Shown here: piece by piece, positions 33,936 to 52,482 of the stretch
Position numbering within the stretch: position 1 is the stretch's first letter
How the letters are laid out: each line of letters starts with the position of its first letter
From: Candidatus Latescibacterota bacterium
GTDB lineage: Bacteria; Latescibacterota; UBA2968; GCA-2709665
DNA length: 64,000 nt
NCBI GenBank assembly: GCA_965226795.1
Contig: CBDDDZ010000003.1
Location: 352,001 to 416,000, forward strand
Direction: 5' to 3'
Made by a program: the position numbers and the translations under genes
Notes under the pieces: model-generated
What the model saw: the letters and a program-made list of their open reading frames with translations, nothing else
Told to the model about the DNA's origin: nothing
Databases searched by the model: none

Positions 33936-34547
33936 ATGAGCACGCCTACAATTCAACTCGACAGAGATCGCCTTCACAGCGCCGGCCTCGGTGTCTTCTT
34001 TCGTCCGAGCCAGATCGATGAGTTGGGGATCACGTACGACCAACTCCGCCGTTTGGTCTCAACCGGGGCCGTTGAGCGGGTCAACCGGGGCCTTTATAGG
34101 CTCGCCAGTGCGGAGCCGACTGAACACGACACACTCGCTGCTGTATGCGCGCGTGTACCCAATGCCGTCATATGCCTGCTTTCGGCGCTCAGCTTTCACG
34201 AAATCGGTACCCGGCTGCCACACGAGGTCTGGATTGCGATTCCCCATAAGGCGAGACCCCCTCGCCTTCCGCAATTCCGAACCCGACTCATCAGGTTCAG
34301 CGGCGCCGCCTGGACCTATGGTGTGTCAGACACCGCATTCGAAGGCGTTCCGGCGCGAATAACCTCGCCCGCTCGCACGATCGTCGATTGTTTCCGATTC
34401 GAACACTTAATCGGACGCGAAACTGCTATTGAGGCATTGCAAGACGGTTTCCGGGAAAAAAAGGTGACTACCGGCGCCCTGCTGCGAACACTTGAGGAGC
34501 TACCTTCGCGCCGGCTGAGCGCGGCCCTGGAAATAGGAATTATATGA
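33936..34547 (+). CDS. Type IV TA antitoxin, AbiEi family
   Basis: wHTH ERVNRGLYRL, SALSFHE, TSPARTIVDCFR. Confidence 0.88.
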   Translation: MSTPTIQLDRDRLHSAGLGVFFRPSQIDELGITYDQLRRLVSTGAVERVNRGLYRLASAEPTEHDTLAAVCARVPNAVICLLSALSFHEIGTRLPHEVWIAIPHKARPPRLPQFRTRLIRFSGAAWTYGVSDTAFEGVPARITSPARTIVDCFRFEHLIGRETAIEALQDGFREKKVTTGALLRTLEELPSRRLSAALEIGII

Positions 34548-35497
34548 TCACCGACGTCGCGGCGTCCATCAGATCTCGCCTGTACAATAAGGCAAAAAAA
34601 GTCGTATCGAGTTCCAGTTTTTCCTCGTGCGCTACGCCTGCGAAAGATTCCTATATCGCCTCGGCGCGTGCCCAGTACGTGATCGGTTTATACTCAAAGG
34701 CGCAACTCTGCTTGCCGTTTGGATGGATGAACCCTACCGCGCTACTCGCGATATCGATTTATTGGCGTCCTCCGGTGTCCCTGACGAAATGTACGTGCGA
34801 GAAACTATGAAAACCATCTGCAATGTCCCCTGCCCGGAGGATGGCCTGGTTTTCGATCTCGATAGCTTGCGGATTTCTATGATTCGTTCGGAGCAAGCGT
34901 TCCCGAGCCAACGCGCCAAGCTCAACTGTTATCTTGGAAGCGCGAGAATTCTCACCCAGGTAGACTTTGGTTTCGGCGACGTCGTCACGGCCGGTGCCGA
35001 GCAAGCGAAATTAAAGACCCTCATTGGCGGTGTCCCCGAACCCTCGTTGCTAGTTTATCCGCTGTCGACAAGCGTTGCCGAGAAGTTTGAAGCCATGGTG
35101 CGATTTGGGCAGCGCAATAGCCGTATGAAGGACTTCCATGACATTTGGGCCCTGTCGGATCGGTTTTTCTTTGATGGCGAGAAACTCCGCCGGGCCATCC
35201 GGGACTGTTTCAGCCGGCGTGGCACGGATCTGAACTCCGAGACTCCGGTTGCTCTCACTTCGTCGTTCTACTCGGACAATGACCGGAATAGGCTGTGGCG
35301 CAACTATCGGGTTGAGAACGGGCTCATGACACCGCCACCCGAATCTTTCGGAAATCGTTGGTGAGCGGTTGCAGAGATTTCTTGAGCCTATCCGTGAAAG
35401 CGTCCTGGCCGACACTTCGTTCGACCTTTGTTGGCCCGCTGGTGGACCGTGGCAACCCGTTTCGGACAAAGACAGCGAGAACGGAGACCGAGCTTGA
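34544..35497 (+). pseudogene. AbiEii nucleotidyltransferase toxin with two frameshifts
   Basis: VAASIRSRL start; shift at the A-run near 34600; FILKGA, RATRDID, NSRMKDFHD; second shift near 35350 restores ...WPAGGPW..., stop at 35497. Confidence 0.85.
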
Positions 35498-35822
35498 GGT
35501 CATCAGGTACAGCGGTTGAGATGGCGTGCCCAAAACGAAAACGAAAACGCCTGTGTGTTGCTGCGGTTGAAGACCCTTCCGGACCTTGTAGACTTCGGCA
35601 CCGAGCGGCTTACATATGATTGAGTGGCATCGTGACGTCTCTGCCGGAAATCGGATTGCCCACGTCGCTAACAAACTTGAAATGCTGAAGGGTTTGCGCG
35701 AAGAATCGCCTGAGTGACATCAAATGTCGGCAGTTACGATATAGTGCCGACATTTAACGTCTTTCCAGGCTCTCGACCAGACGAACTACAGCAAGAATAG
35801 AATATCTTCAAGGGCGATTTAC

Positions 35823-35942
35823 ATGTCCGAACTTGGTGCAACACAGATTCCCAAGCCTAGCGACGAGCAAGCCTTTGAGCGGTGCAATGTTACGCTTTAT
35901 CAGAGGAGGATAGACGCTTGGAAGGCGACGTCAGGAGATTGA
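35823..35942 (+). pseudogene. Truncated N-terminus of a restriction-endonuclease-like protein
   Basis: MSELGATQIPKPSDEQAFERC resembles the IPxPxxxxxFExLC start of Mrr-like REase domains; breaks off at the next gene's RBS. Confidence 0.45.
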
Positions 35943-37243
35943 TCGACGATCCCCGGTTCCGGGCATACCATCGGGAGCTCCTGAAACCAAGGGAGTTCAA
36001 CACGTTCGACGTTCTCCAGTACGCGGACTACGAAATCCGCCACAGCAACGTGTTGGCGTGGCTGCTCCAGCCCGGCGACACCCACGGTATCGGCGCACGG
36101 TTCCTGAAATGGTTTGTGGACCAGATCGATAAACGGCTCCCGGTGGCGAATGCGGACCGCCTTCCCGCAATCGGCTTTGAGGTGTCGAATGTCGCTGTCT
36201 GGAGAGAACGGGACCACGTCGACATCACGGTCTTGTTCAAGGAAGAGCGGTGTTTGATCGCCATCGAGAATAAGGTGGGACCGGCGTCTACCGACCACGT
36301 TCAGCAAGCCTTGGGCTACGAACGGGAGCTGCGCGAAAAGCACAAGGACCACACGGTGAGAAGCGTCCTGTTGACCACCTCGCCCAACGGAAGCGTGGAC
36401 TTCCCGGGCATTGTCCACGTTGGTTGGGAGTCGGTCCACGAAGTCATCGGCAGATTCTATGCGGAAGGCAGGTTCCAGTCCTGTGGCGTACGGACCTTCG
36501 TACTACAGTACCTTGAACTGGTCGAAAGGTGGTTTGGTTCCGCAGGAGTCGAGGGCTTCAAGAAGCTTCTTGACGACTATCACTCCATCCTGCAGAAGAT
36601 GCGGCAGGTCCTGGACAAGGACGGCGATGACGGTGTCCGTGGGATGGCGCCGGAGGATCGGACGGCGTACCGCGACGCGCTTGTCACGCTGGTGAAGGCA
36701 TCGAGACAGGATCCCTTGGATCTGCGAACGGCGGTGGCAAATTGCCTCAAGCGGCAAGGCTGTAAACTCCAATACGCAATGAATCCCCCGAAGGGGATTT
36801 ATTGGTTGAATTGGCGCAATACCGACCTGGCCGGTTTCGCGCGGAGACTGGGCTGCGGAGACTTCGCCCTCTCGTGGGGGATGACGTTCACCCATCACGA
36901 AGTCCGGGCGGGTTTCTATCTCTATCAAAAGAAGCCAGAGGAGCAGGCCTCGCTGGACCGGCTCAAGCATTTCCTGAAAGCCACGCCGATCAACAGACAT
37001 ATGCCGGACGAATACGTCATGCGGGACAACGGCTTCGGCTGGTATCAGGTCTACGACCTGGAGGTCCTTTCCAGGGATGAGCTTGCCGGCATGTCGGGAC
37101 ACGAGGTCAAGGAGGAAGTGATCCGGAGACTGGAGAACTTCATGGGTCCGGACGACTCGGAGTACAGACGCATCGACGACTACTTCCAATGCCTCGCCTT
37201 CACACCCGACGATTCGGCATCCGCGCGGGAGGATTCGCCATAG
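35918..37243 (+). CDS. PD-(D/E)XK nuclease family protein (PDDEXK_4-like)
   Basis: EIRHSNVLAWLL.P...HG.G..FL, VDI...IAIENKV; GAGGAGG RBS before TTG 35918. Confidence 0.82.
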   Translation: MEGDVRRLIDDPRFRAYHRELLKPREFNTFDVLQYADYEIRHSNVLAWLLQPGDTHGIGARFLKWFVDQIDKRLPVANADRLPAIGFEVSNVAVWRERDHVDITVLFKEERCLIAIENKVGPASTDHVQQALGYERELREKHKDHTVRSVLLTTSPNGSVDFPGIVHVGWESVHEVIGRFYAEGRFQSCGVRTFVLQYLELVERWFGSAGVEGFKKLLDDYHSILQKMRQVLDKDGDDGVRGMAPEDRTAYRDALVTLVKASRQDPLDLRTAVANCLKRQGCKLQYAMNPPKGIYWLNWRNTDLAGFARRLGCGDFALSWGMTFTHHEVRAGFYLYQKKPEEQASLDRLKHFLKATPINRHMPDEYVMRDNGFGWYQVYDLEVLSRDELAGMSGHEVKEEVIRRLENFMGPDDSEYRRIDDYFQCLAFTPDDSASAREDSP

Positions 37244-37339
37244 CGGTTTGAAACTGCCGCTCCATTGAAGCGCCGAATCGGTGCTATATTGCTTTTGCGG
37301 TCTTGCGGGACAACTCGAAATCCAACGCTGGAGGGATCA

Positions 37340-37828
37340 ATGATATCCGGATCCGCCGGTTCCCTGGTTTCCGCCGAGTGGGGCGCGGCCTCGGTCGCGC
37401 TACTGCTCGGCCTGCTCGCCGCGACCGGCTGCCGTGAATCGACGCTCGATCCGGGTGTCCCCGATAGCAACGTGGTAGTCGCCGACGACCGCGACCGGGG
37501 AGACGACCCCTGCGTCGTGAACTCGGCCGCCATCGGCGGACACCGGTTGACCATCGAAGTCTCGTACGCCGGCGGCTGCCGGAGGCACGACTTCACGCTG
37601 GTAATCTCGAAATCGTTCAGAGAGTCGGATCCAGTGCAGCTTCCGGCCGTGCTCGCCCATAATGCGAACGGCGATCGCTGCGAGGCATGGCTGACCGAGT
37701 CCCACGTCTTCGACCTCGCCTTGGTCAGGACGCGCTATCAGTAGTTATACGGACCCGGTCCGGGCAAGGTCGTCCTTCGAATCGAGGGCGTGTCCGGTGA
37801 CAACTTCTTGTACGAATTCGACGGATAG
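37340..37828 (+). pseudogene. Putative lipoprotein with internal TAG at 37742
   Basis: Lipobox-like LAATG-C; YAGGC..HDF motif; frame continues LYGPGPGKVVLRIEG... to TAG 37828. Confidence 0.6.
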
Positions 37829-38363
37829 CGCCGGGCGGGTCGCCCAACTCGAAACCGGCAACTCCTGCTTTCTTCGATTGAACGCGACGAGAGTCCTGAC
37901 CTCTCTAATTTACAGGCGCTATGCAATTATATCGGTCATACGGGTGCGGATCTTCAGTCACATACCGCCCTCGGCGCCGGATTCATTAATGCCCTATGGG
38001 CGAGCGCCCGACCTATTGTCCTGTCTGACGTTCCCGTTGATTCAAAGACTCTTAAAGCCACAGACCAGGTGTCACGTGCGCTGATCGGCGAAAATAAAAA
38101 CGAAGAATGGTCAAGATGGGCGGCTAAGCTCTTCCTTGGGTTGGCGAAGCTCCAGCACTTTATCTTCTCCGCTGGTGCGAGGGGAAATTTTTGCCTGTCG
38201 ATCAAATTCGAAAGATTCTGCGAGAAGAGATGGATTGACGGGAGTGGCTATTCGGGGTTCGTTTAGAACGGGGGCAAACGGACAATAGATAGTAAATGAT
38301 CTGAGACGAAGAATTCGAATACCAAGGGAATTTGCGTGATAATAGACACGGCACGGAGGTAGT

Positions 38364-39761
38364 GTGAATTACCGGAAGGCGAACACCAACCATCCATTGA
38401 AGAATAGGCTAAATCCCTACCCGGCCTACAAGGACTCCGGCATCGAATGGCTGGGTGGGATACCAGCGCATTGGGAGGTGAAACGGCTGAAGTATGCTGT
38501 AAATTTGAACCCAGCGTCAACCGAGGCAAGAACCCACGACGATTCGCTTGAGGTCTCGTTTGTACCGATGGAGGCTGTTGGAGAATACGGCGGCCTTGAA
38601 TTGGTGACAACTAAGCCAATACGCGATGTATACGATGGTTACACGTACTTTCGTGAAGGGGATGTTTTGGTCGCGAAAATTACCCCGTGTTTCGAAAATG
38701 GCAAGGGCGCGATCGCTACTGGGCTCGTTAATAAAATTGCATTCGGGACCACGGAGCTGCACATCCTACGGACCAAAAGGACGACAAACCGGCAATTCCT
38801 GTTCTACTTGTCTATGGGAGATGCGTTCAGAAAACTTGGCCAAGCCGAAATGTATGGTGCGGGCGGCCAGAAACGCGTGCCCGAATCATTCATTGCCGAC
38901 TTATTGCACCCGCTCCCACCTCTCCCCGAACAGCGGGCCATCGCCGCTTTCCTTGATCGCGAGACGGCCAGGATCGACACCCTCGTCGAGAAGAAGGAAC
39001 GGCTAATCGAGTTGCTACAGGAAAAGCGCTCCGCGCTCATCAGCCACGCCGTAACGCGGGGTCTCGACCCCGACGTACCCACGAAGGACTCGGGAATCCA
39101 GTGGCTGGGAGAAATTCCGGTGCATTGGGAAGTAAGGAAGATCAAATCTCTGTTGGTTTGCCGAAAAGGTGCAATCAAGACTGGTCCATTCGGCAGCCAA
39201 TTGCACAGTTTCGAAATGACGCATAGCGACATAAAGGTGTTCAATCAGCGGACAGTGATTGATCGCGATATTTGGACCGGTGTGAACTACATTTCGATGG
39301 CTAAATTTAACGAACTACAAGCCTTCGAAGCGTTTCCAGGTGACTTGCTAATTACTACACGGGGCACGATCGGACGATGTCTGATTATTCCATTCGAAGC
39401 TCCTCGAGGTATTCTCCATCCCTGTCTAATGAGGATTCAAATAGACTCAAAGCATGCGTACGATCACTATATCGAGTTGGTCATAGAGAAAAGCGGATTG
39501 ACTTTGGCACAACTTCAATTGATGAGTCATGCTACGACAATTGACGTGATTTATTCGGATTCATTAAAAGAGACTCTACTATCAATTCCACCACTCCCCG
39601 AACAACGCGTTATCGCCGCCTTTCTTGACCGCGAGACGGCAAAGATTGACGCCCTCGCCACAAAGGTCCGAGAAGCCATCGACCGCCTGAAGGAACTCCG
39701 CTCGGCTCTCATTTCCGCGGCGGTGACGGGCAAGATCGATGTGCACGAAAACGTGCCATGA
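38364..39761 (+). CDS. hsdS: Type I R-M specificity subunit
   Basis: Two KDSGI.WLG.IP.HWEV and two PPLPEQR.IAAFLDRETA.ID repeats; AAVTGKIDV end. Confidence 0.95.
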   Translation: MNYRKANTNHPLKNRLNPYPAYKDSGIEWLGGIPAHWEVKRLKYAVNLNPASTEARTHDDSLEVSFVPMEAVGEYGGLELVTTKPIRDVYDGYTYFREGDVLVAKITPCFENGKGAIATGLVNKIAFGTTELHILRTKRTTNRQFLFYLSMGDAFRKLGQAEMYGAGGQKRVPESFIADLLHPLPPLPEQRAIAAFLDRETARIDTLVEKKERLIELLQEKRSALISHAVTRGLDPDVPTKDSGIQWLGEIPVHWEVRKIKSLLVCRKGAIKTGPFGSQLHSFEMTHSDIKVFNQRTVIDRDIWTGVNYISMAKFNELQAFEAFPGDLLITTRGTIGRCLIIPFEAPRGILHPCLMRIQIDSKHAYDHYIELVIEKSGLTLAQLQLMSHATTIDVIYSDSLKETLLSIPPLPEQRVIAAFLDRETAKIDALATKVREAIDRLKELRSALISAAVTGKIDVHENVP

Positions 39762-39910
39762 ATTATCCAGGCGACTGGTCCATTATGGACCATACGTGGA
39801 GACATGGAGCGAAATCCAAAAAGACCGCGGAATACGGCGAATCCCTTGAAACCTGTTCTTGAGTAACTTAGATTTACTGGCTTGATCCCGTCTTTGCGAT
39901 GGGTTTAAAT

Positions 39911-40761
39911 TCACTGTTTTGTCGTCAAATTCCATCCACCTCCGTCTTTGAGAATTAGCTTCATATTCCCGTCCTGATCCGTTCGGTATACCTTGTTTCC
40001 CTTGTTGGAACCGCCAGAATATTTCTCGTATAGTTCGATGGCCTTAGAGTTGGGGTGGCCGTGTGGGTTATCACCAACGGACACAATTGTCATCGCTGGA
40101 TCCATCGCTTCTTAACGTGATCAACGTAGTAGTGTTTTTCATCTTGGGGGTCATCGAAAAACGTGCTTGATCCATGATGGCCTGCTAAAAGTATGTCGCA
40201 CAAGAGTTCACTATTGTTGTAGTCTTCTTTAACTGCATATCTCCATGTCTCAGCATCGCTATCGCCCGTAAGCATTACGCTTCCTTCTCGCGAGACGTCG
40301 TTTGCACTACGTTGCTCAACCTTAAGTACTATGCCTTGCGCGTTGGCGTTTTTGGGTAGTCGTTCGTCTCGCGCACTCAGAAAGCGAAATCGTGTGCGAC
40401 CAAATCCCTGGCGCTTCAACTTCTCTTTGAGAACCGCGCCGACGGTTCTCCTTAGCTGCATGTATTGACGATATTCCGGGGCGTCAATCGAGGTTCCTGG
40501 ATGCCCGCTATCCCAGATCTTCTTAATGGGAAAGTATTCGTTTAACTTGGTTATACCGCGAATATGGTCGGCGTCTCGGTGAGTGCATACAAACGCGGCT
40601 AATATAGACTGCCAACCGATCTGTCTAGCGACGTACTGTAATACTCTATCTTCGTTCTCGTCGGTGATGTTGCAATCAACGACAAAATTGTCTCCATTTG
40701 CCGCTTCAATTAGCGACATGTTGCCCTGTCCAACGTCTATGAAATGTACAATCGTACTCAT
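39911..40761 (-). pseudogene. ComEC/Rec2-like MBL-fold hydrolase, frameshifted near 40107
   Basis: HFIDVGQG, THRDADH, LTGD, GHHGS; continues in the 39911-40105 frame with SVG.NPHGHP and YRTDQDG. Confidence 0.85.
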
Positions 40762-40850
40762 TGTTGGATACTCCACTTCAAGAACTCGAATCTAAAATGC
40801 GTCAGTGTAGATTGCTATTGCATGGAGATCACTTGCTACGAAACTTCCAT

Positions 40851-41603
40851 TTAGTTTTGGCAACTATCAGTGAGATCGTCCCTGTTAAGGCCTACAACCG
40901 CCGCGAAAAAACTTTCTGCGTAACGATCGGCCTTTTGGCGAGTATACTTCGGTAGGATGTATCCTAAGATTACAGTTCCCACCGCGATGAGTGTAGAAAT
41001 GAATGCCAAGAGTGAAGAACCGTTCTGACAGAGATATGTTACCCAGCATCCGACGAGGCTGGCCATAGCGAATGTAATCCACACGCATCTGAGCCCCGTC
41101 AAATTTCGCGCAAACCCGTAGTCGCTGTTGTGTAGACGTACCCGCTCCCCGATAGGTGATTTCCACAACCGACTGCGAAGCTCACTGAGAGCATCGTTAA
41201 TCACGGCCTCAATCTCGTGTTCATTGCCAGTCTCGACGGCTTGAGCGATGTCAAGGCCAACCAAGTCCTTTATGACCTGATACCAACGCTTTTTTTGTTG
41301 ATCGGAAGTTGAATTATCGTCTGGATGGAGCCATCGGTTCGTCGGAGCGTCGTGGGGCCAGGCAGGCCACATTTTTGACTGCAATCGATTGCCAAATGCC
41401 GAAGCAAGATGAGACGCGAATACAGCTAGAAGGGTACTGAACACAACGTAGGACACAAGAAGCTTCACAATTCCGAGAATCGGGATACCGAATGCAACTG
41501 CGACGGTCCACAACGGTAGAACAGAAAGTGCGGCAGGGATAAAACGGGCTTTTCGTTCGTATTGGTCACTCAGGTTTAGGTAGTTGAGCCATCCCTTATT
41601 CAT
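40851..41603 (-). CDS. Four-TM membrane protein, candidate defence effector
   Basis: Two N-terminal and two C-terminal hydrophobic helices; ARFIPA and N.DYGFARNL.G motifs; start overlaps the upstream stop. Confidence 0.75.
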   Translation of the reverse strand: MNKGWLNYLNLSDQYERKARFIPAALSVLPLWTVAVAFGIPILGIVKLLVSYVVFSTLLAVFASHLASAFGNRLQSKMWPAWPHDAPTNRWLHPDDNSTSDQQKKRWYQVIKDLVGLDIAQAVETGNEHEIEAVINDALSELRSRLWKSPIGERVRLHNSDYGFARNLTGLRCVWITFAMASLVGCWVTYLCQNGSSLLAFISTLIAVGTVILGYILPKYTRQKADRYAESFFAAVVGLNRDDLTDSCQN

Positions 41604-43881
41604 TCGCTATCGCCTCACGTTGGAAGGTGCTTTTCTCCGTTTTGCCAATGTAAAATCCAATATCTCGCCCTTCCCCCACTATTGTCATCGTTGCTGGGTA
41701 GCCGTCGGCTTGCATCAGTTCCTCAAGCCATGCAAGAACCTTCAGATCGTCCTTGCTTGGCTTCGTGCCTGCACCGCTCGGATGTGAATGCCATTCGCCC
41801 ACATACTCAATCATGCCGTGGACTACTTTGGTACGTTGTGCGACTTTCTCCGAAAGCCCCTCACATCCCCGGATGTATAGAGTAGGCCATTCTTCGCTAT
41901 CAGGTGGCGAAGGCAACGCATCGACGACATAGACGATACGTCTCTCCATATCGAAGGAACCCAGTAGAACGCCACCAGTTTCGTTTGGAAGTTTGGATTG
42001 ACGCACACGCGAGAGGGTCTCTATTACGACGTTGTCAGTGACAACTGTCCAATCGTTGGTAATTTTACGCACAACGGGGGCGGGGGATACTTTGACACGA
42101 TTTACGACACCGTCCTCGTTTGAACGCCAGATCGTAATTTGTGCGTCAGCACACCGTACGGCATCGCATACTGCTCTCCCGCCATTGCTCGCGTGAAGAC
42201 CTACCATGTATTGGGGGAGTATGCTTGTGATATCCCGACAGGATTGGGCATAGCGATACCTCCCGGGTGGCTTGTCAAGATGTCCTGACAAGCATCGGTT
42301 GTTTAGAACGGCTCTATAGTACTGCATTTCGAGGGCATCGACGGTAATGTTTCGTTGCTTATCTTCCGCGAGCAGAACGAGGTCTTTCCCGGACGGCGAC
42401 AGGAATAGCGAGATCCTCCGCGCTGTGCTATTGCAATCCTGCGCAATCATCCGTGCAACGCCAACCGATGCCGACATGTCTAGGATCAGGTCGGCCTTAG
42501 CCAGCGCATTGGATAGTTCTTGAGTTCGTCCACCAGGGGATAGCACATTTACTGGAAATGAGCTAAACAGGTCGGAACCGAAAATTATAGTATTCGCTAA
42601 GTGTGCAACGGCATCTGCCTTGTTCCAACCCACAAAACTACCGTCGAGGGCATGCCGGGCTAAATTGTGTGGCAATAGTATGTCGTGATCGATCAGTGTC
42701 CAAGTACCAAACCCTGTTCTCGCAATATTGATTGCAACTTGGGAACCAAGCGCACCCATACCGATCGCAACAACCCTCATATCGACCAATTCATCCTCGC
42801 CATTGAGCTTGGCTGCCATTGAGCGATCGAGGTGATGAACCAGATTCAGCACTGCTATGTCTACATCGTCGCCCGTTTTCGATGTGTCGGGCGGCAATAA
42901 ATAGCCAACCTCTTCTCCCAGTAAATCCCAAAGGCCGATCTTGGCGCCCAGTTGGCGAATTTGCAAGCCCTCAGCACTCTTGTCTTCTGCACTATCCAAA
43001 AGCAAAAACGCCCAACTATCAACTGCCTCGCTCTCTTCTTTTTCATGCCGCATTTTTGGAAACAAAATAACGACGAGAAGATTGGCGTCGAGAACAGATC
43101 TGTCCGTCTGATGCCAGGTCTGGAGACGTTTTCGTAATTCAGAAATAAGGTCGACCTTGGCAACCGCCGTCATGGCAGCAAGGTCAGCAAGTGTCGACGG
43201 AATTTGATGAATGACCCCATGCGTCTGAGGTTCGCAACGATGTACACTTGCAAGTAGCGGCGGCGGTCCTTCATGCGGTTCGCCTGTTAGTGCGATCAGA
43301 AAAAGGCCTTTACTATTATTGTCCGATGTCACCGAAACTACGACTAGCGGGGTTGGTAGGCGCTTCTCCAATTGTTTGGTAGAAGGAAGGACGATGTGCC
43401 CGTGGAAATCCATAAGAAGGGGTTCAAGAGGTTGGTCGTCCTGGTGGAGTTTTCCTTGACTGTTTAAGGATAGCCACCGACGGATGTCGTGGACGAACCT
43501 AGGGGAAGTCCAGCATCGCTTGATTTCCTCGTAAGGTTCTTCGTACACACACATATTTCGAGGATACTCTTGCCGGTGCAGATTGAGGTGCGGCACTCGC
43601 GGGAAATTAACACGTAGGGCATGGACAACAGGTACGTTGTCGTCCTCTTTAGTAAACGACGCGGATATGCGCTCTGTTGCCTTGATCGGGTAACGCTGCA
43701 CCTGTGCGATTTCAACGTCGACCTCAAACACCACAATTTCAATTTTATCCCGCTTACGACATTCGACGAACCGGGCAAAGTCAATGCGCTCAGCCGATAG
43801 ACTGAGCGCGAGATCCTTGGCCTTTGAAATCTCAAGGTCGTTTGGCCGGACGACGTCCCCCGAGACATCAAAATAGCTCAT
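41596..43881 (-). CDS. E2 - ThiF/E1 - JAB fusion (Cap2-Cap3-like)
   Basis: E2 FPRVPHLN...MCVYE; E1 GMGALGS and LIDHDILLPHNLARH; JAB ETGG, EWHSHP, PSKDD. Confidence 0.92.
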   Translation of the reverse strand: MSYFDVSGDVVRPNDLEISKAKDLALSLSAERIDFARFVECRKRDKIEIVVFEVDVEIAQVQRYPIKATERISASFTKEDDNVPVVHALRVNFPRVPHLNLHRQEYPRNMCVYEEPYEEIKRCWTSPRFVHDIRRWLSLNSQGKLHQDDQPLEPLLMDFHGHIVLPSTKQLEKRLPTPLVVVSVTSDNNSKGLFLIALTGEPHEGPPPLLASVHRCEPQTHGVIHQIPSTLADLAAMTAVAKVDLISELRKRLQTWHQTDRSVLDANLLVVILFPKMRHEKEESEAVDSWAFLLLDSAEDKSAEGLQIRQLGAKIGLWDLLGEEVGYLLPPDTSKTGDDVDIAVLNLVHHLDRSMAAKLNGEDELVDMRVVAIGMGALGSQVAINIARTGFGTWTLIDHDILLPHNLARHALDGSFVGWNKADAVAHLANTIIFGSDLFSSFPVNVLSPGGRTQELSNALAKADLILDMSASVGVARMIAQDCNSTARRISLFLSPSGKDLVLLAEDKQRNITVDALEMQYYRAVLNNRCLSGHLDKPPGRYRYAQSCRDITSILPQYMVGLHASNGGRAVCDAVRCADAQITIWRSNEDGVVNRVKVSPAPVVRKITNDWTVVTDNVVIETLSRVRQSKLPNETGGVLLGSFDMERRIVYVVDALPSPPDSEEWPTLYIRGCEGLSEKVAQRTKVVHGMIEYVGEWHSHPSGAGTKPSKDDLKVLAWLEELMQADGYPATMTIVGEGRDIGFYIGKTEKSTFQREAIANE

Positions 43882-45017
43882 CTTTGGCTACCTGCCCTCG
43901 GTGCGCGCCCTGACGTAGCGATAATTCCCGCGCTTACCACACTCTTTTTCAATGTTGCTTTGCTTTGTCCGATTTCAATCACCAACGGCTTAGGTGAGTT
44001 ACGTGACGGATGTTCCATCGTGACGACGAATTGCCCAACGAGGGCACGCGTGACGTCCTTGTAATAATTCGCAGCCTGTCGATGGGGTGGCTGCGAGTCC
44101 TCGTCTTCGTTACTACCTCCTACGGGAATGGGCTTGCTTGTTGATACCGCGATCGCCCCACGGTGTCCCTTTTTTTCGCATAGCCGCGCCACCTGAGTCA
44201 CGGGTGTGGTTTTGCTTGTGCCCTTTTCGGATCCTATGGAAAGATAGCTGCAGTGGTGGGGAATCTTGAGGATATCCCATTCAAGGTATTCTTCGTTTCC
44301 CTTGAACTCGGTAACGTCAACAATCTGTGACAGCACTTCATGGGTGGAATCAGCCAACATCAGCACTTTGGTATGTACTCCTGCGACATCGAAGGTTGCA
44401 TGCAGCACAAGCGAGTCCTCGTTCCGATCCTCGACCGGTTTATCGTTCTGTCGGATAGCAAATGGCGAGTGAACAAAAAACTCGATATGATCTTTACACA
44501 GAGAAAACTCAGGTGCGATCTCTCCCGCATCCGTAATCAAGTGAAGCCGGTCGTGGAGCTTCATGTCATTTTTTTCGCACCACTTCTCCAACCGTTCCGG
44601 CCGGGAGAAAACACGGATCCCTTTCGCCTGGCGGAATCGATAACGAGCCTCTTTCTGCAAAATGCGCGCCTCATCATCGTCAGGGCTCGTCTCCGTGATG
44701 AACGCAGAGGGCACCCACATCATGTTCATCTTGATGCGTTTTCCAACTTGGTACTTCATCGCATGTTCAAGGTAAAAGAAGTCGGAGGCCCCCTTGAAGT
44801 GATCTTTATCCAGGTGACTGAACGCTACGACGTCGAAGTAGTCACGATTGTTCTTCTTTAGGCCGTCTTTGAGGAGTTCCGGAAGGTCGCACCTAAGGTC
44901 ATTGTCGTCATTTTCATCTTTGGTTGCAGCGTAATCGATAAGGATTGTACGGTCACACGACAGTTCAATGCGACAGCAGTCGGCGTTTCCCAAAGGGAAA
45001 AAGGTCATTGTATGCAT
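43878..45017 (-). CDS. MBL-fold metallohydrolase
   Basis: FFPLGNAD, SHLDKDH, KIPHHCS; C-terminus APRAGSQR; ATGA overlap with the E2-E1-JAB gene. Confidence 0.88.
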   Translation of the reverse strand: MHTMTFFPLGNADCCRIELSCDRTILIDYAATKDENDDNDLRCDLPELLKDGLKKNNRDYFDVVAFSHLDKDHFKGASDFFYLEHAMKYQVGKRIKMNMMWVPSAFITETSPDDDEARILQKEARYRFRQAKGIRVFSRPERLEKWCEKNDMKLHDRLHLITDAGEIAPEFSLCKDHIEFFVHSPFAIRQNDKPVEDRNEDSLVLHATFDVAGVHTKVLMLADSTHEVLSQIVDVTEFKGNEEYLEWDILKIPHHCSYLSIGSEKGTSKTTPVTQVARLCEKKGHRGAIAVSTSKPIPVGGSNEDEDSQPPHRQAANYYKDVTRALVGQFVVTMEHPSRNSPKPLVIEIGQSKATLKKSVVSAGIIATSGRAPRAGSQR

Positions 45018-45215
45018 TTTAGCCTCCAACAGGGGTAGTGTTTGTAATTGTCATTTCACGTGAGTTTGGCGAACCGGGAAATGCCGGCCTAAACCGAAAT
45101 CCCAGATTGTCCGCCCAAACCTCCAGCGATGAATCACGCTGATTATCGCGTATGTTTCGGCGATCACTATCCATCTTGATGTCCGGATGACTAACGTCAA
45201 CTATATCGAACCTGG

Positions 45216-46466
45216 TTAAATTCCGTTACTTCCTTCATCGTCGAGGCTCAGGTCGGAAACCGCGTCATCCACTTCGCCGGCATCCACATTCAACATGCCG
45301 ACTAAGTCGATAAGTTCGGCACGGGAGATTCTTTTCCGCCTTAATGCTTCCAGGGCTAACCCGACAAACCGGTCGCGGAATTCGTTACGCAGAGCCTGGT
45401 GGTCCGGTTCCGGAAAGCCCAAGAGCTGCTCCAATTTACGCCCCTTATCCATTCTCTCTTGTTCTAACAGGCTCTCGAGTTCGCTAGCTGTGAGGAGTCG
45501 GGTGCTTCTCAGGCGATAGCAGGCGGCGATTCGGCTGACGCCGAAGTGGTGCGCCATACGCACTACATCGTAGAGCTGTATTTTCTGGCTTCCTGCGGTA
45601 GATCGAGCCCGCCCACGAATTGGCGATCCCTCATCGAACACTTCGGCTTCCATACGGCTGGGTCGCCCCTTTCCGGAAGCGTGGATAAACTGGCGCACTG
45701 CCTCAGCAGGCATCAGAAAGCTGGCGGCAAAGGAGTTGGCACGGACCTCACGTAACTGATCTCGGTCGTGCTCTCGACTGACGAAACCGCCGTGGTCTCG
45801 GTCCATAAGCACGTGACAATATTCGTGTGCGTACGAGAATCGCCTGCGCGAAAAATGGTGCTCCCGATTTGCTACAATGAGGACTCCGATCTCCTGCTTG
45901 ATGAGTGTAAAACCTGATACGTCGTCCGGCAACGTGACCAAGGCAGTACGAACGTCCTGCGATTCGAGAAGCTGGGCGATTTCGGAGATTGACGTAAGGC
46001 CGAGCCCAAGGCGGCCGCGTTCTTCCATTGCGACGCGTTCACCTTGTTGAATAGCCTCCCACGTGGTGCGTGGTTGTGGAAGCGGGTACGCCGCGACTGT
46101 AACTAGATCGCGGTCAATATCCAGCAATTGCTCAAGTCTGGTCATTTCCCGGCCCAAAGCTAAACACCGGAGGAGGGCCTCTCGCAAATCCTCCTTGCTC
46201 GACAGATCCGGGTGAAGTCGGTACAACGCGACGAGTGCATTCTCCTCTTCAGGTTCCTCCTCCGCCACAAAGCTCTGCAGATCCTTACCGAAGAGGATGG
46301 CAAGGCGAAACAGTTCAATACCGTTGACCGTACGGTTGCCCAGTTCGATCTGTGCCACAGTAGAGCGCGAGACTCCGAGGTGATTTGCAACCTCGTCTTG
46401 GGTCAGGCTGCTGGATTCTCTGGCGCGCCTAAGCCTCTGGCCCAACTCTTTATGGTCAATTGCCAT
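45216..46466 (-). CDS. XRE-HTH plus ImmA/IrrE (M78) metallopeptidase fusion
   Basis: LTQDEVA..LGVSRSTVAQIELGNR HTH; RRFSYAHEYCH; EVRANSFAASFLMP. Confidence 0.92.
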   Translation of the reverse strand: MAIDHKELGQRLRRARESSSLTQDEVANHLGVSRSTVAQIELGNRTVNGIELFRLAILFGKDLQSFVAEEEPEEENALVALYRLHPDLSSKEDLREALLRCLALGREMTRLEQLLDIDRDLVTVAAYPLPQPRTTWEAIQQGERVAMEERGRLGLGLTSISEIAQLLESQDVRTALVTLPDDVSGFTLIKQEIGVLIVANREHHFSRRRFSYAHEYCHVLMDRDHGGFVSREHDRDQLREVRANSFAASFLMPAEAVRQFIHASGKGRPSRMEAEVFDEGSPIRGRARSTAGSQKIQLYDVVRMAHHFGVSRIAACYRLRSTRLLTASELESLLEQERMDKGRKLEQLLGFPEPDHQALRNEFRDRFVGLALEALRRKRISRAELIDLVGMLNVDAGEVDDAVSDLSLDDEGSNGI

Positions 46467-47583: not shown

Positions 47584-47755
47584 GCCTCGCGGTTTCAGAA
47601 ACCTCTTTCCAGTACACCATCTACCTGGAACTGGCTTATATTGTGGAAGCCGGTTCTTTTCTTTTTCGCCCATTTGCATTATATTATTAGCGACTTAAAG
47701 CAATGACGCTAATAAGATTGACTCCTATTTTCATATGTGCAAACAAGGCACGGTC

Positions 47756-48955
47756 ATGACACCAGGAAACAACGGGCGTAGCCCGCCCCCCGGTCGCACA
47801 ATCCGATGTCCGGAAGGCTATAGCGCATACGTACCGGCGCCACTTCCGCCCGATATTGCCTGGGACAAGGAACTCGCCCTCGCGCTTTCCCATGCCGACC
47901 GTGCAGTGGGCCGGCTCGCGGGCGAAGGCCGGCTGATGCCGATTCCGTATCTCTTTATCAGGGCATTCCTGTACAAGGAAGCGGTGCTTTCCAGCCGCAT
48001 CGAGGGCACGCAGGTTTCCCTGGGCGAATTGTTCGCCGCAAATGCCGGAGCGAGAGTCGAGCGAAGCGCAGAGGAATTGGAAGAGGTGGCAAACTACATC
48101 GTGGCGTTAGACTACGGCATCGATCGCTTGGCAACGCTTCCGCTTTCATTGCGCCTGGTTCGGGAACTGCACGAGCGGCTGATGCGCGGCGTGCGCGGCG
48201 ACACTGCGACGCCGGGCGAGTTTCGCCGCATCCAGAACTGGATCGGCCCGCCCGGATGTGGTGGGAGCAACGCGACTTACGTTCCACCGCCCCCGGATGA
48301 ACTGATGGATTGCCTCGGCGCGTGGGAGCGATTTCTCCACGACGAAACACTTCCTCCTCTCGTCCACGCCGCTCTCATCCATTCGCAGTTCGAGGCCATC
48401 CATCCGTTTCTCGACGGGAATGGACGTATCGGTCGGCTGCTCATTCCGCTGCTGTTCGCTGCCCGTGGCGTTTTACCAACACCGCTTCTGTATCTGAGCG
48501 CATACTTTGAATCGACGCGGCAGGAGTACTATGAACACCTTCTAAGGGTGACCCACGACGGAGAGTGGGAGGCGTGGCTGGTGTACTTTCTGCGCGGTGT
48601 TGCCGAGCAGGCCGAGGACGCCATTCGTCGGATCCGCCGCATCGACGAATTGTTCCATCGTTGGTCGGAGCAAATCGCAGGCGTCAGATCGGGGAATCTG
48701 GAGACGGTTTTGGAACTGTTCGTCGAATTCCCGTTCTGGAACGTGCGCATGCTCGCATCAAAGCTGGGGGTCGCCTACACGACGGCTCGGCGCGCCGTCG
48801 ATCGGTTGGAATCAGCAGGTATTGTCACGCAGGTTGGCGACGCAAAGCGAAACCGTGTATATTGTGCGGACGCAGTACTCGAAGTCCTCGACGCGCCGCA
48901 TATCGAAAATCAAGACGAACCGAAAGCCACAATGACTTCGCGAGTCGCATTATGA
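47756..48955 (+). CDS. Fic family protein (Fic_N, Fic, C-terminal HTH)
   Basis: EAVLSSRIEGT and HPFLDGNGRIGR. Confidence 0.93.
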   Translation: MTPGNNGRSPPPGRTIRCPEGYSAYVPAPLPPDIAWDKELALALSHADRAVGRLAGEGRLMPIPYLFIRAFLYKEAVLSSRIEGTQVSLGELFAANAGARVERSAEELEEVANYIVALDYGIDRLATLPLSLRLVRELHERLMRGVRGDTATPGEFRRIQNWIGPPGCGGSNATYVPPPPDELMDCLGAWERFLHDETLPPLVHAALIHSQFEAIHPFLDGNGRIGRLLIPLLFAARGVLPTPLLYLSAYFESTRQEYYEHLLRVTHDGEWEAWLVYFLRGVAEQAEDAIRRIRRIDELFHRWSEQIAGVRSGNLETVLELFVEFPFWNVRMLASKLGVAYTTARRAVDRLESAGIVTQVGDAKRNRVYCADAVLEVLDAPHIENQDEPKATMTSRVAL

Positions 48956-51900
48956 GTCCCGTTATTTCCGAAAAAGCCTTCGAAGACGCCATCGAGGCGG
49001 CTTTGCTTGGCCATGGCAAGGATGAGTCGGGGGGTCTTCCGACCGGGGTGCGTGAAGGCGGGTTGCCGATAGGCGGCCAGGCGATGGAACCCGGTGGCTA
49101 TTTCAAACGAAGGCACGAGGACTATGACCACGCACTCTGCCTTCTGCCCAAAGATGTTCTGGATTTCATTATTGCGACTCAGCCAAAGGAGTGGCGGAAG
49201 TTGTCCCAGCACTATGGCGCCCAGGTCAAAGGACGATTTCTCAAGCGCCTATCGTCGGAAATCGAACGCCGGGGCGTACTCCACGTGCTGCGGAACGGGA
49301 TCAAGGATATGGGCTGCACGTTCCGATTGGCCTATTTCCGGCCGGCCAGCGGGCTCAACGAGGAGACGCGCCGACTGTATATGGCCAACTTCTTCGCGGT
49401 TGTCCGCCAGGTACGCTACAGTATGAAAAACGAGAAAAGCCTCGATTTGGTTCTGTTCCTGAACGGTATCCCCATTTTCACCGCCGAACTCAAGAACCTG
49501 CTCAGCGGACAGACGGTCGAGGACGCGATCCGCCAGTATAAGACAGACCGGGACCCGCGCGAGCCGCTGTTCGGCTTTGGCCGATGTCTGGCGCATTTCG
49601 CGGTTGATCCGGATCTGGTCTACGTCACCACACGTCTCGCCGGTCCCAAAACGCGCTTCCTTCCCTTCAACCAGGGTAACAACCGCGGTGCGGGAAACCC
49701 GCCGGTGCCGCCTACGCAATCCGGCTATGCCACTTCGTATCTCTGGGAGGAGACATGGTCGCGGGACAGTGTGCTTGATTTGGTGCGCCAGTTTGTCCAC
49801 GAAGTCGAGGAGGAAGACGAGAACGGCCGCAAGACCGGCAGGAAATCGCTGGTCTTCCCGCGCTACCAGCAACTCGATTGCGTGCGAAAGCTCATATCGG
49901 ATGCCCGTAAGACCGGGGCGGGACAGCGCTATCTCATCCAGCACTCCGCCGGAAGCGGTAAGACGTTCACCATCGCCTGGCTCGCCCACCAGTTATCCAC
50001 GCTGCACGACATAGAAGACCGCCGCGTTTTCGATTCGATCGTAGTTATCACGGACCGGCGCGTGCTCGACCGCGCCCTCCAGGGCGCCATGCGCCAGTTC
50101 GAGCAGACCCTGGGCGTTGTGGAAAATATCGACACGACCTCGCGCCAACTCAAAGAGGCGCTCGAATCCGGCAAGACAATTATCGTGACCACGCTGCAGA
50201 AATTCCCGGTGATCGCCGCGGAAATCGGCGAATTGCCGGGCAAGCGATTCGCACTGATCGTCGACGAAGCGCACTCGTCCCAATCCGGCGAGAGCACCAA
50301 GAGCCTAAAGGCGGTGTTGGCGACGGGGTCTTTAGAAGAGGCGGAGGGCGAGGAAGCCGGGGCCGAGACGCCAGAAGAGGAACTCGAAAACGCGATCCTG
50401 GCGGAGGTGGAGAAGCGCGGGCGCCTGCCCAATCTCTCGACTTTCGCCTTTACCGCGACCCCCAAGCCCAAGACGCTGGAGCTTTTTGGCACCCGCCGCA
50501 CGGACGAATCGTTCGAACCGTTTCACCTCTACAGCATGCGGCAGGCCATCGAGGAGGGGTTCATCCTCGACGTCCTGGAGAACTATACGACCTACAAAGC
50601 CTATTGGCGGCTATTGAAGAAGGTGGAGGACGACCCGCGCTACGACAGGCGCAAGGCTACCGTCCTGCTCAAATCGTACGTTGAACTTCACCCGCACGCG
50701 ATTGACGAGAAGGTACGCATCATGGTCTGCCACTTTGTCGAGCAGGTGCACACCCAGATCGACGGGAAGGCAAAGGCAATGATCGTCACCCGCTCGCGAC
50801 TGCACGCCGTTCGCTTCAAGCTGGCGGTGGACAAATACCTCGCCGAACAGGGGCACGCGTTCAAAGCGCTGGTTGCGTTCTCGGGCACCGTCGAGGATGG
50901 CGGCAAGTCCTATACCGAGCCCGGCATGAACGGCGTTTCCGAGGTGCAGACCGCAAACACATTCAAAGGATCGGAATATCGATTCCTGATATGTGCGAAC
51001 AAATTCCAGACCGGTTTCGACCAGCCGCTGTTGCACGCGATGTACGTCGACAAAAAACTCGGCGGCGTGAACGCGGTGCAGACACTCTCACGGATTAACC
51101 GTACAGAACCAGGAAAAGACGGCACGATGGTACTCGATTTCGCCAACGATGCCGACGACATCAAGGAGGCCTTCGAACCTTATTACGAAACAACACTGCT
51201 GTCGGAGGCGACCGATCCCAACCTGCTCTACGAGATCCAGATGCGTCTGTCCGACTTCCCGGTATACGATCAGTCCGATGTGGATGAATTCGCAAGGATT
51301 TTTTTCGACAAGGCCGCCACACAGGACCAGCTTCATGCCGCGCTCAATCCCGTGGTCCACCGATTTCAGACGTTAGAAGAAAGTGAACAGCAGGAATTCC
51401 GGGGTCAACTTGTCGACTACGTGCGGCTTTACGCGTTTCTCGCACAGATCCTTCCGTTCGCCGACGTCGATCTGGAGAAGCTGTACGTCTTCTCGCGACA
51501 CTTACGCCGCCTGTTGCCAATGGACCGGGCTGAGTTGCCGCTCGAAGTTCAGCAGAATATCGACATGGAGTCGTATAGGATTCAGGAAACCCGCAAAGGC
51601 AAAATAAACCTGGAGCGAGGGACGACGAAGCTCGAGCCCGTCGGTACAAAGGACACATACTCGCTACAGCCGGAAGAAATGGAGACCCTTTCGCGGATCA
51701 TCGCCGAATTGAACGAGCGCTTCGGGGTCGAACTCGGGCAGGAGCACCGCGCCACCCTCGGCCAGATGATGGACAGACTTTCTGAAGACGCTGCACTCGG
51801 CGCCGCGGCGCGGGTGAATACGCGCGAAAATGTGCGATTGACTTTCGACCACAAGGTTGAAGAGACCATCCAGGGTATTGTGGATTCCAATTTCGATCTA

Positions 51901-52482
51901 TACAAACGGATCACCGACGACCTCGCTTTTGGAAACGTCATCAAAGATGTCCTCTTCGACCAGTTCCTGCGCACGAACCGTAGCGCGGAGGACCTCATCA
52001 AACAGGGCGAGTCGAAAACCCTGGAATTTAAATCGACGCTGCGCTGGAACCTGAAAGAGGACCGCAAGAACGATAAGCGCGTCACCCATGCGGCGCTCAA
52101 GACAATCGCCGCATTCCTGAACACGGAAGGCGGCGACCTTCTGCTAGGCGTCGCCGACGACGGCGCCGTCGTTGGAATAGAACGCGACCGGCTAGATACC
52201 GAAGACAAGTTCATGCTGCATCTCGCGCAGATCGTGCGCAACGGTCTCGGCGACCGCGCAGGCACGTGCATCGATCCCGGAGTTCAGATCGTCGACGGCA
52301 AGGCGGTATGCGTGGTGAGTTGCCAACGGAGCCCGGAACCGGTGTTCCTCTCGTGGAAGGGACTTGAGAAGGAAAACGGAGGTGACTTTTTCGTGCGCAG
52401 CGGTCCGGGAGCCGTTAAGCTCTCGTCAGACGACACCAGGGAATACATCCGTTCCCGGTTTGCCGGTTCAAATCCCAAGTGA
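48952..52482 (+). CDS. hsdR: Type I R-M restriction subunit with C-terminal Schlafen/AlbA_2-like domain
   Basis: D.VLF.NGIP..AELK nuclease, QHSAGSGKT, DEAH, FTATP; C-terminal GESKTLEFK...IAAFLNTEGG.LLLGV.DDG. Confidence 0.93.
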   Translation: MSPVISEKAFEDAIEAALLGHGKDESGGLPTGVREGGLPIGGQAMEPGGYFKRRHEDYDHALCLLPKDVLDFIIATQPKEWRKLSQHYGAQVKGRFLKRLSSEIERRGVLHVLRNGIKDMGCTFRLAYFRPASGLNEETRRLYMANFFAVVRQVRYSMKNEKSLDLVLFLNGIPIFTAELKNLLSGQTVEDAIRQYKTDRDPREPLFGFGRCLAHFAVDPDLVYVTTRLAGPKTRFLPFNQGNNRGAGNPPVPPTQSGYATSYLWEETWSRDSVLDLVRQFVHEVEEEDENGRKTGRKSLVFPRYQQLDCVRKLISDARKTGAGQRYLIQHSAGSGKTFTIAWLAHQLSTLHDIEDRRVFDSIVVITDRRVLDRALQGAMRQFEQTLGVVENIDTTSRQLKEALESGKTIIVTTLQKFPVIAAEIGELPGKRFALIVDEAHSSQSGESTKSLKAVLATGSLEEAEGEEAGAETPEEELENAILAEVEKRGRLPNLSTFAFTATPKPKTLELFGTRRTDESFEPFHLYSMRQAIEEGFILDVLENYTTYKAYWRLLKKVEDDPRYDRRKATVLLKSYVELHPHAIDEKVRIMVCHFVEQVHTQIDGKAKAMIVTRSRLHAVRFKLAVDKYLAEQGHAFKALVAFSGTVEDGGKSYTEPGMNGVSEVQTANTFKGSEYRFLICANKFQTGFDQPLLHAMYVDKKLGGVNAVQTLSRINRTEPGKDGTMVLDFANDADDIKEAFEPYYETTLLSEATDPNLLYEIQMRLSDFPVYDQSDVDEFARIFFDKAATQDQLHAALNPVVHRFQTLEESEQQEFRGQLVDYVRLYAFLAQILPFADVDLEKLYVFSRHLRRLLPMDRAELPLEVQQNIDMESYRIQETRKGKINLERGTTKLEPVGTKDTYSLQPEEMETLSRIIAELNERFGVELGQEHRATLGQMMDRLSEDAALGAAARVNTRENVRLTFDHKVEETIQGIVDSNFDLYKRITDDLAFGNVIKDVLFDQFLRTNRSAEDLIKQGESKTLEFKSTLRWNLKEDRKNDKRVTHAALKTIAAFLNTEGGDLLLGVADDGAVVGIERDRLDTEDKFMLHLAQIVRNGLGDRAGTCIDPGVQIVDGKAVCVVSCQRSPEPVFLSWKGLEKENGGDFFVRSGPGAVKLSSDDTREYIRSRFAGSNPK

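What the first reader, a model, noticed from the sequence alone, without database searches (positions are those of the whole stretch)
43878..43940. MBL tail ...GRAPRAG-SQR* looks like a masked conjugation glycine
Seen: the MBL ends in a flexible tail with PRAG followed by three extra residues. Known: Cap2 activates CD-NTase C-terminal Gly/Ala, and JAB peptidases trim precursors to expose Gly. Inference: the fused JAB removes SQR, then E1/E2 ligates the whole MBL enzyme to a host or phage target, so the MBL itself is the ubiquitin-like modifier.
Basis: inference. Interest (0 to 1): 0.8.

Follow-up and report, generated by a model that had tools for sequence, protein, structure and literature searches.

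The report
Masked glycine tail of 6A-MBL enzyme
An enzyme of an already named bacterial anti-phage system (6A-MBL) ends in a flexible tail with a strictly conserved glycine hidden behind three extra residues, which the neighbouring enzyme probably clips off before attaching the whole enzyme to a target; this is a real but largely expected variant, and the evidence is comparative only.

Summary
Observation confirmed. The 379-aa MBL-fold protein ends PRAG-SQR, its stop overlaps the ATG of an E2-E1-JAB gene, and residues 360-379 are predicted disordered. Both genes pass NCBIfam's 6A-MBL cut-offs. PRAG is present in 120 of the 120 best homologues: 93 end at the Gly and 27 carry 1-10 extra residues of 20 different sequences. 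Masked and unmasked tails interchange at least 25 times on a 176-protein tree, and the window protein lies in a 10-member all-masked clade. The partner keeps both cysteines and the JAB motif here and in 18 of 18 masked loci with a full partner. Best reading (0.72): JAB trims after Gly376, then E1/E2 conjugate the MBL, as Cap2 does CD-NTases. No cleavage, binding or target is shown. Conjugation of the MBL is already stated in print (PMC11601596), JAB trimming is shown for BilA and BubAB, and this scan noted the same on other DNA. The extension looks like tolerated read-through into a gene overlap, not a designed latch. One lead: the third gene slot holds membrane proteins or patatins, like CBASS effectors.

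The parts
43878..45017 (-). 6A-MBL system MBL-fold enzyme, 379 aa; ComEC-like fold; HxDxDH 68-73, D223, PHH 253-255
   Evidence: NCBIfam NF058524 391 bits, cut-off 220; motif residues invariant in 120 of 120; best fold match ComEC beta-lactamase-like domain 9ic4, E 1.6e-12, TMq 0.50
43878..43940 (-). Flexible C-terminal tail, residues 360-379, plus stop codon
   Evidence: pLDDT under 50 for 360-379; translation
43890..43901 (-). Invariant PRAG motif; Gly376 (43892-43890) is the predicted conjugation residue
   Evidence: 120 of 120 best homologues; all four Gly codons used in 76 loci, 29/16/16/15
43881..43889 (-). SQR extension masking Gly376; variable in relatives, absent in most
   Evidence: 27 of 120 have an extension, 20 different sequences; 7 different extensions in the window's 10-member clade
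43878..43881 (-). ATGA overlap of the MBL stop with the partner's start codon
   Evidence: sequence
41596..43881 (-). cap2_3: fused E2-E1-JAB protein, 761 aa
   Evidence: NCBIfam NF058523 624 bits, cut-off 320; Pfam; best PDB sequence matches are Cap2 E1 domains, E 1.4e-11
43549..43551 (-). E2 domain Cys111, putative catalytic (role inferred from invariance)
   Evidence: C in 120 of 120 homologues
42238..42240 (-). E1 domain Cys548, putative catalytic (role inferred from invariance); GxGxxG 374-379 and R409 also kept
   Evidence: C in 120 of 120 homologues; invariant in alignment A2
41731..42024 (-). JAB metallopeptidase domain with E634, H698, H700, S709, D712
   Evidence: Pfam PF14464 residues 620-717; residues present here and in 117-119 of 120 homologues for E, H, H, D
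40851..41603 (-). Third gene: 250-aa all-helical, probably membrane protein of unknown family; overlaps the cap2_3 stop
   Evidence: homologue downstream in 28 of 45 non-redundant loci with at least 800 nt of flank; no credible Pfam, PADLOC, NCBIfam or fold match
45216..46466 (-). Upstream XRE helix-turn-helix plus M78 (IrrE-like) peptidase regulator; not a core part
   Evidence: Pfam; PADLOC RmrA E 1.5e-26, capP 4e-17; strong matches in only L001, L100 and L056 besides the window's own locus

Best explanation
The tail is the conjugation handle of a 6A-MBL system, made here as a short precursor. Step 1 (inferred): the JAB domain of the fused partner cuts after Gly376 and releases SQR. Step 2 (inferred): the E1 domain adenylates the exposed Gly, and the MBL passes through thioesters on Cys548 and Cys111. 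Step 3 (inferred): the whole MBL enzyme is ligated to an unknown amine acceptor, and the same JAB can take it off again. This cycle sets the activity or location of a ComEC-like metallo-hydrolase during phage infection; whether conjugation switches it on or stores it is open. Shown here: the anatomy, family membership, protein-level invariance of PRAG, variability of the extension, and intact catalytic motifs. The extension is most simply tolerated read-through: because JAB recognises the residues before the scissile bond, loss of the stop after Gly costs little.
For: PRAG in 120 of 120 best homologues, 93 ending at Gly and 27 extended by 1-10 residues. Synonymous codons vary freely in 76 loci (four Gly, four Pro, six Arg codons), so the constraint is on the protein. 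On a tree built without the tail, 176 proteins (127 unmasked, 49 masked) need 26 (FastTree) or 25 (IQ-TREE) state changes. The window protein sits in a 10-member all-masked clade (support 0.992; SH-aLRT 99), 81-96% identical, with RAG in 10 of 10 and 7 different extensions. All 18 non-redundant masked loci with a full partner keep both Cys and JAB E/H/H/D. Among distant representatives about 25 of 87 that reach the tail have [RK]xG plus an extension (six rows removed by eye). Four MBL relatives have an AGS-C domain in place of the tail, a domain named for nucleotide cyclases. Precedents read as passages: BilC cuts BilA after Gly97 and BilA homologues carry up to nine extra residues; BubCD cuts BubAB after Gly229; Cap3 cuts a linear fusion at the cGAS C-terminus; MBL pathways said to conjugate their own enzyme.
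Against: No biochemical or structural test. Intact JAB does not discriminate: 28 of 28 unmasked loci keep it too. Within the window clade 230 of 350 body columns are also invariant, so RAG invariance there is weak alone (about 0.28 by that rate; about 0.05 by the rate of tail columns 359-372, 5 of 14). The 176-protein set required the motif for entry; 13 of 103 loci had no match to it, among them L101 with no Gly near its end and L087 with a scrambled tail. P0139, probably the partner of masked P0011 (same longest-contig length), loses the JAB metal site in an apparent frameshift; this could be an assembly error or a real exception. [quoted passage not shown]
Confidence: 0.72

Rival explanations
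1. The tail is cut and bound but not ligated to a target: JAB cleavage or E1 binding or adenylation of the tail controls the MBL, or the Gly becomes a thiocarboxylate as in ThiS/MoaD.
For: The E1 domain also resembles MoeB/ThiF; no conjugate has been seen here.
Against: The E2 Cys111 and E1 Cys548 are each present in 120 of 120 homologues; the nearest solved relatives are Cap2, which ligates its substrate.
Confidence: 0.1
2. The MBL is conjugated after trimming, but a host protease and not the fused JAB removes SQR; JAB only deconjugates.
For: JAB is equally intact in unmasked systems, 28 of 28; one probable masked pair lacks the JAB metal site (P0011 with P0139).
Against: Extensions differ in length (1-10) and in first residue (16 kinds among 49), which suits a peptidase that reads the residues before the bond; BilC, BubCD and Cap3 all cut linear peptide bonds after their substrate's Gly.
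Confidence: 0.1
3. Masked copies, including this one, are dead or dying: the stop after Gly was lost, the tail cannot be activated, and PRAG has not yet decayed.
For: 11 of 24 first extension codons are one base from a stop, against 18 of 61 sense codons; many masked proteins are lone tips of the tree; a neighbouring second MBL gene is frameshifted.
Against: An all-masked clade has diverged to 81% identity with intact frames, RAG kept in 10 of 10 and the extension itself rewritten; four more masked clades of 2-4 members with differing extensions and SH-aLRT 92-100; partners intact in 18 of 18.
Confidence: 0.05
4. PRAG is conserved because its DNA serves as the ribosome-binding site of the overlapping partner gene.
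For: In the window the Ala-Gly codons read GCAGGT 8 nt before the partner ATG; GCA and GGT are the commonest codons, 36 and 29 of 76.
Against: All four Gly and Ala codons, four Pro and six Arg codons occur; PRAG is kept where the partner starts 15-26 nt away (L007, L048, L056).
Confidence: 0.03

Closest known systems
6A-MBL anti-phage system (row 6a operon of PMC1779556; NCBIfam NF058524 and NF058523; named in van den Berg 2024, seen only second-hand in PMC13276650 and PMC13700489)
   Same: MBL gene directly before an E2-E1-JAB triple fusion; both genes pass the curated cut-offs.
   Different: The Gly is masked by three residues, as in 27 of 120 close homologues; a third membrane gene and an XRE-M78 regulator flank the pair. 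Anti-phage activity of this copy is untested.
Type II CBASS: Cap2 (E2-E1) and Cap3 (JAB) acting on the CD-NTase C-terminus (PMC10097602; PDB 7TO3, 7TSQ)
   Same: A non-ubiquitin enzyme with a flexible tail and terminal Gly next to an E2-E1 fusion and a JAB; E1 domain closest to Cap2.
   Different: The substrate is an MBL-fold hydrolase, not a cyclase; JAB is fused; the CD-NTases in the passages read end at Gly/Ala with no extension.
Bil (BilA-D; bioRxiv 2023.09.26.559546) and Bub (PMC11601596) bacterial ubiquitination systems
   Same: JAB pre-processes a precursor to expose the reactive Gly; BilA homologues carry up to nine residues after it.
   Different: Their modifiers are beta-grasp proteins; here the modifier is a 376-residue enzyme with no beta-grasp match.
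ComEC beta-lactamase-like nuclease domain (PDB 9ic4)
   Same: Best fold match of the MBL body, E 1.6e-12.
   Different: 13% identity; no membrane competence domain in the same chain; substrate unknown.

Membership tests
6A-MBL system | MBL-fold gene of the 6A family | tested here: met
   NF058524 391 bits vs cut-off 220
6A-MBL system | Adjacent single polypeptide with E2, E1 and JAB in that order | tested here: met
   Pfam 49-171, 357-486, 620-717; NF058523 624 bits vs 320; ATGA overlap
6A-MBL system | Catalytic motifs intact (E2 Cys, E1 GxGxxG and Cys, JAB E-HxH-D; MBL metal ligands) | tested here: met
   roles assigned from invariance, not from a structure
6A-MBL system | Protects against phage | not testable with these tools
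   needs plaque assays
Cap2-type conjugated non-ubiquitin substrate (works like) | Flexible tail with conserved terminal Gly/Ala | tested here: met
   Gly is terminal in 93 of 120 and masked here
Cap2-type conjugated non-ubiquitin substrate (works like) | Forms a thioester with E1/E2 and a covalent conjugate | not testable with these tools
   needs biochemistry
JAB-processed precursor (as BilA, BubAB) | Invariant Gly followed by a variable, dispensable extension, with an intact cognate JAB | tested here: met
JAB-processed precursor (as BilA, BubAB) | Cognate JAB binds the tail and cuts after the Gly | not testable with these tools
Type II CBASS (membership) | Encodes a CD-NTase | tested here: not met
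   the gene in that position is an MBL; none of the 16 neighbouring ORFs scanned had a CD-NTase family match in Pfam; the only nucleotidyltransferase hit is an AbiEii gene about 5.5 kb beyond the third gene
Ubiquitin-like (beta-grasp) modifiers | Beta-grasp domain before the terminal Gly | tested here: inconclusive
   the model is an MBL fold ending in a disordered tail, and the listed fold matches are MBL-fold proteins or complexes that hold one; no beta-grasp entry is listed, which by itself does not exclude one

The most novel reading that the evidence does not exclude
6A-MBL is a third signalling branch beside type II CBASS and Pycsar: the MBL fills the cyclase slot and makes or releases a small signal, rather than killing as a nuclease, and the gene after cap2_3 is its interchangeable effector. 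In 45 non-redundant loci that slot holds this membrane family (27 adjacent, 1 further off), a patatin phospholipase (7), other membrane-like proteins (6) or nothing evident (4), and some MBL relatives swap the Gly tail for an AGS-C domain. In masked lineages, trimming by the fused JAB would be a gate before the first round of conjugation.
Probability: 0.2. Interest if true: 0.72.

Novelty: new member of a known kind. Interest (0 to 1): 0.3.

Why it matters
If right, it extends ubiquitin-style conjugation of whole enzymes beyond CD-NTases and gives the fused JAB two jobs, maturation and deconjugation, in the same chain as the ligase. It also has a practical use: annotators and experimenters should look for an internal PRAG, since about a fifth to a quarter of these enzymes do not end in Gly, and a JAB-dead control would block both maturation and removal in such operons. 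Natural masked and unmasked pairs make the test easy. The core idea is anticipated, so the gain is confirmation plus one lead (the effector-like third gene).

Tried and rejected
PDB sequence search with the MBL found only a ComEC domain at E 0.97, and no 6A-MBL structure appeared for either protein. A count of stop-start overlaps in masked versus unmasked loci (19 of 23 vs 24 of 49) is rejected as a test: Gly codon plus TGA creates false start codons. A first regular-expression check of JAB motifs gave false negatives and was replaced by alignment columns. The tree counts cannot tell gain from loss of the extension (no root). The third gene gave no credible family or fold: Pfam only two weak hits under cut-off, PADLOC and NCBIfam none, Atlas clusters unnamed, Foldseek best E 0.28, VIA best Z 6.8 on helical hairpins; its link to the other membrane family is weak (hhalign probability 8.9). 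No plasmid held a full MBL-AGS-C fusion, 0 of 117 records at 80% cover, so its gene context is unknown. Viral contigs gave 1 locus from 42 pattern matches, not analysed. Papers not held: Ledvina 2023 Nature, van den Berg 2024, a 2019 paper on Csx27-like membrane proteins recalled from memory; their text and supplements may already show tail extensions or JAB cleavage. The Ledvina preprint has no mention of lactamase, metallo or Pycsar. PMC10449767 and PMC13069673 passages added nothing.
Full report
What is there. The finding covers the last 20 codons and the stop of a minus-strand gene, 45017-43878, for a 379-residue protein ending PRAG-SQR. Its TGA overlaps the ATG of a 761-residue gene with Pfam Prok-E2_A, ThiF and Prok-JAB domains in that order. 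NCBIfam names both: 6A-MBL_enzyme, 391 bits against a cut-off of 220, and 6A-MBL_cap2_3, 624 against 320. The AlphaFold model (40-sequence alignment, mean pLDDT 86) is an MBL fold whose residues 360-379 score under 50; the best fold match is the ComEC beta-lactamase-like domain, E 1.6e-12. Upstream lies an XRE-M78 regulator; downstream a 250-residue helical, probably membrane protein and a second, frameshifted MBL gene. The block lies among type I restriction, Fic and AbiE genes, at 49-52% GC for 38001-46000 against 55-66% in most other 2-kb bins. In the window's phylum 11 of 168 genomes hold the MBL family, and 1 of 14 others of the genus, a patchy pattern usual for defence genes.

Is the glycine conserved? 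The homologue search gave 3748 proteins at E up to 0.001 among 5671 candidates; I examined the best 120 (59-100% identity, the window's own protein included). All 120 have PRAG; 93 end at the Gly; 27 continue by 1-10 residues in 20 different sequences. Only 46 of 379 columns are invariant, and PRAG is one of two invariant four-residue runs. The last residue is Gly in 95 of 120 MBLs and in 12 of 120 partner proteins. Of 103 loci with DNA, 90 matched a relaxed motif; of the 13 that did not, 3 run off the contig, 2 break before the tail, L087 has a scrambled tail, L095, L096 and L105 have RVG followed by 3-5 residues, L097-L099 end in SHG, and L101 has no Gly near its end. Among the 150 listed 50%-cluster representatives I took the 87 that reach the tail region: 34 were classed as ending in [RK]xG, 31 as [RK]xG plus extension, 13 as ending in another Gly or Ala, 9 as other. 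By eye six of the 31 are misclassed (four end in Gly, two are spurious), leaving about 25. In 76 non-redundant loci the motif uses all four Gly codons (29, 16, 16, 15), four Pro and six Arg codons, so the constraint is on the protein and not on a ribosome-binding site.

Is the masked form alive? On a tree of 176 non-identical proteins built without their tails (127 unmasked, 49 masked; entry required the motif), the state changes 26 times with FastTree (label shuffles 36-49, mean 42.9) and 25 times with IQ-TREE; direction cannot be told. The window protein belongs to a clade of 10, all masked (support 0.992; SH-aLRT 99), 81-96% identical, with RAG in 10 of 10, Pro in 9, and seven different extensions. 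Alone this is modest evidence, since 230 of 350 body columns are also invariant in the clade. In the partner, C111 and C548 are present in 120 of 120 homologues and the JAB residues E634, H698, H700, D712 in 119, 117, 118 and 117. All 18 non-redundant masked loci with a full partner keep both cysteines and the JAB motif, but so do all 28 unmasked ones, so this is a passed requirement and not a discriminating test. One possible exception: P0139 loses its JAB metal site in an apparent frameshift and shares its longest-contig length with masked P0011.

Where does SQR come from? In the window the partner ATG lies 8 nt after the Gly codon. Unmasked relatives such as L002, L004 and L006 have stop plus five bases plus ATG, the same 8 nt. 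SQR is thus what results when the stop is lost and the spacer is read into an ATGA overlap; three residues is the commonest length, 24 of 49. Eleven of 24 first extension codons are one base from a stop, against 18 of 61 sense codons, a mild excess among related sequences. My formal overlap count was confounded and is not used. An earlier scan note (e1-7232775) read its extension as a tolerated leftover of gene overlap; my data agree, and nothing here shows a purpose-built latch.

Mechanism. Shown: anatomy, membership, invariance, variable extension, intact motifs. Inferred by analogy: JAB cuts after Gly376; E1 adenylates it; thioesters on Cys548 and Cys111; ligation to an unknown acceptor; JAB reverses it. 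Precedents, read as passages: Cap2 forms a thioester with the C-terminal Gly of cGAS, and Cap3 cuts both conjugates and a linear fusion (PMC10097602); BilC cuts BilA after Gly97, and BilA homologues carry up to nine further residues (bioRxiv 2023.09.26.559546); BubCD cuts BubAB after Gly229 (PMC11601596, first part of Results). Whether conjugation activates or stores the enzyme is open; a Bacillus cyclase is conjugated to the membrane protein PspA (PMC11153139, passages). A complex model could not be obtained.

What is known. The operon is row 6a of PMC1779556 (passages). [quoted passage not shown] 6A-MBL is named as a defence system in PMC13276650, PMC13700489 and bioRxiv 2025.09.30.679545 (passages). 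The two primary papers (Ledvina 2023 Nature; van den Berg 2024) were not held. I recall, without a call, that the first models MBL tails in the E1 site and tests JAB on tail fusions; if so, even the cut is in print. A 2025 review still calls Cap2 the only transferase known to activate a non-beta-grasp protein (PMC12355090, passages). Ten searches and the passages read showed no text on masked MBL tails, but the missing papers and their supplements may hold it. Earlier notes of this scan reached the same reading on other genomes; they are not independent support.

A lead beyond the finding. In 45 non-redundant loci with a full partner and at least 800 nt downstream, the next gene is a homologue of the window's membrane protein in 27 (one more at 1.2 kb), a patatin in 7, another membrane-like protein in 6 (judged from sequence; two have weak Csx27 matches) and nothing evident in 4. 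The Gluconobacter oxydans plasmid copy has a masked tail and a patatin. Four of 12 long or odd MBL representatives scanned carry AGS-C instead of a tail. Patatin and membrane effectors and AGS-C are CBASS and Pycsar parts (own knowledge), which suggests the MBL may stand in the cyclase slot of a signalling circuit. Against: the operon was described as usually two genes, the closest named relative L001 has a different third gene, and the membrane gene may instead pair with the second MBL (PADLOC PDC-M48B matches).

Verdict. Real feature, sound inference, known system. New member of a known kind; interest 0.3.

Noticed in passing
window 39911-40776 (-): A second, ComEC-like MBL gene (PADLOC PDC-M48B E 2e-14) stops early at 40090; a plausible C-terminal part continues in another frame from about 40110 to a stop at 39911, so it is frameshifted or misassembled. 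Distant homologues follow the membrane gene in 7 loci.
   Followed up: partly
window 40851-41603 (-) and the gene after cap2_3 in 45 loci: Variable third slot: this membrane family in 28 of 45, patatin in 7, other membrane-like proteins in 6.
   Followed up: partly
P0268, P0277, P0292, P0324: MBL relatives of 482-507 aa with a C-terminal AGS_C domain in place of the Gly tail; gene context not found.
   Followed up: partly
L056 MBL end; P0248: Doubled motif: PRAG followed by a short extension that itself ends in RAG, giving two possible conjugation glycines.
   Followed up: no
P0274, P0308, P0319: Distant MBL tails end in Ala after an aromatic residue, echoing the Gly/Ala ends of type II CD-NTases.
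   Followed up: no
P0317: An MBL part joined directly to a JAB domain with no E2 or E1 between; deletion product, misassembly or real fusion.
   Followed up: no
window 45216-46466 (-): XRE-HTH fused to an M78 peptidase ahead of the operon, a one-gene analogue of CapH plus CapP; present beside few relatives.
   Followed up: partly
window 33936-39761 and 47735-52482 (+): The minus-strand block sits between a type I specificity gene and a Fic gene plus a type I restriction subunit with a C-terminal Schlafen/AlbA domain; AbiEi/AbiEii and a PD-(D/E)XK nuclease lie nearby.
   Followed up: no
L107 (NZ_ON146836.1): On this plasmid the MBL matches in three pieces and the partner region is annotated as several short ORFs, so the system looks broken.
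   Followed up: no
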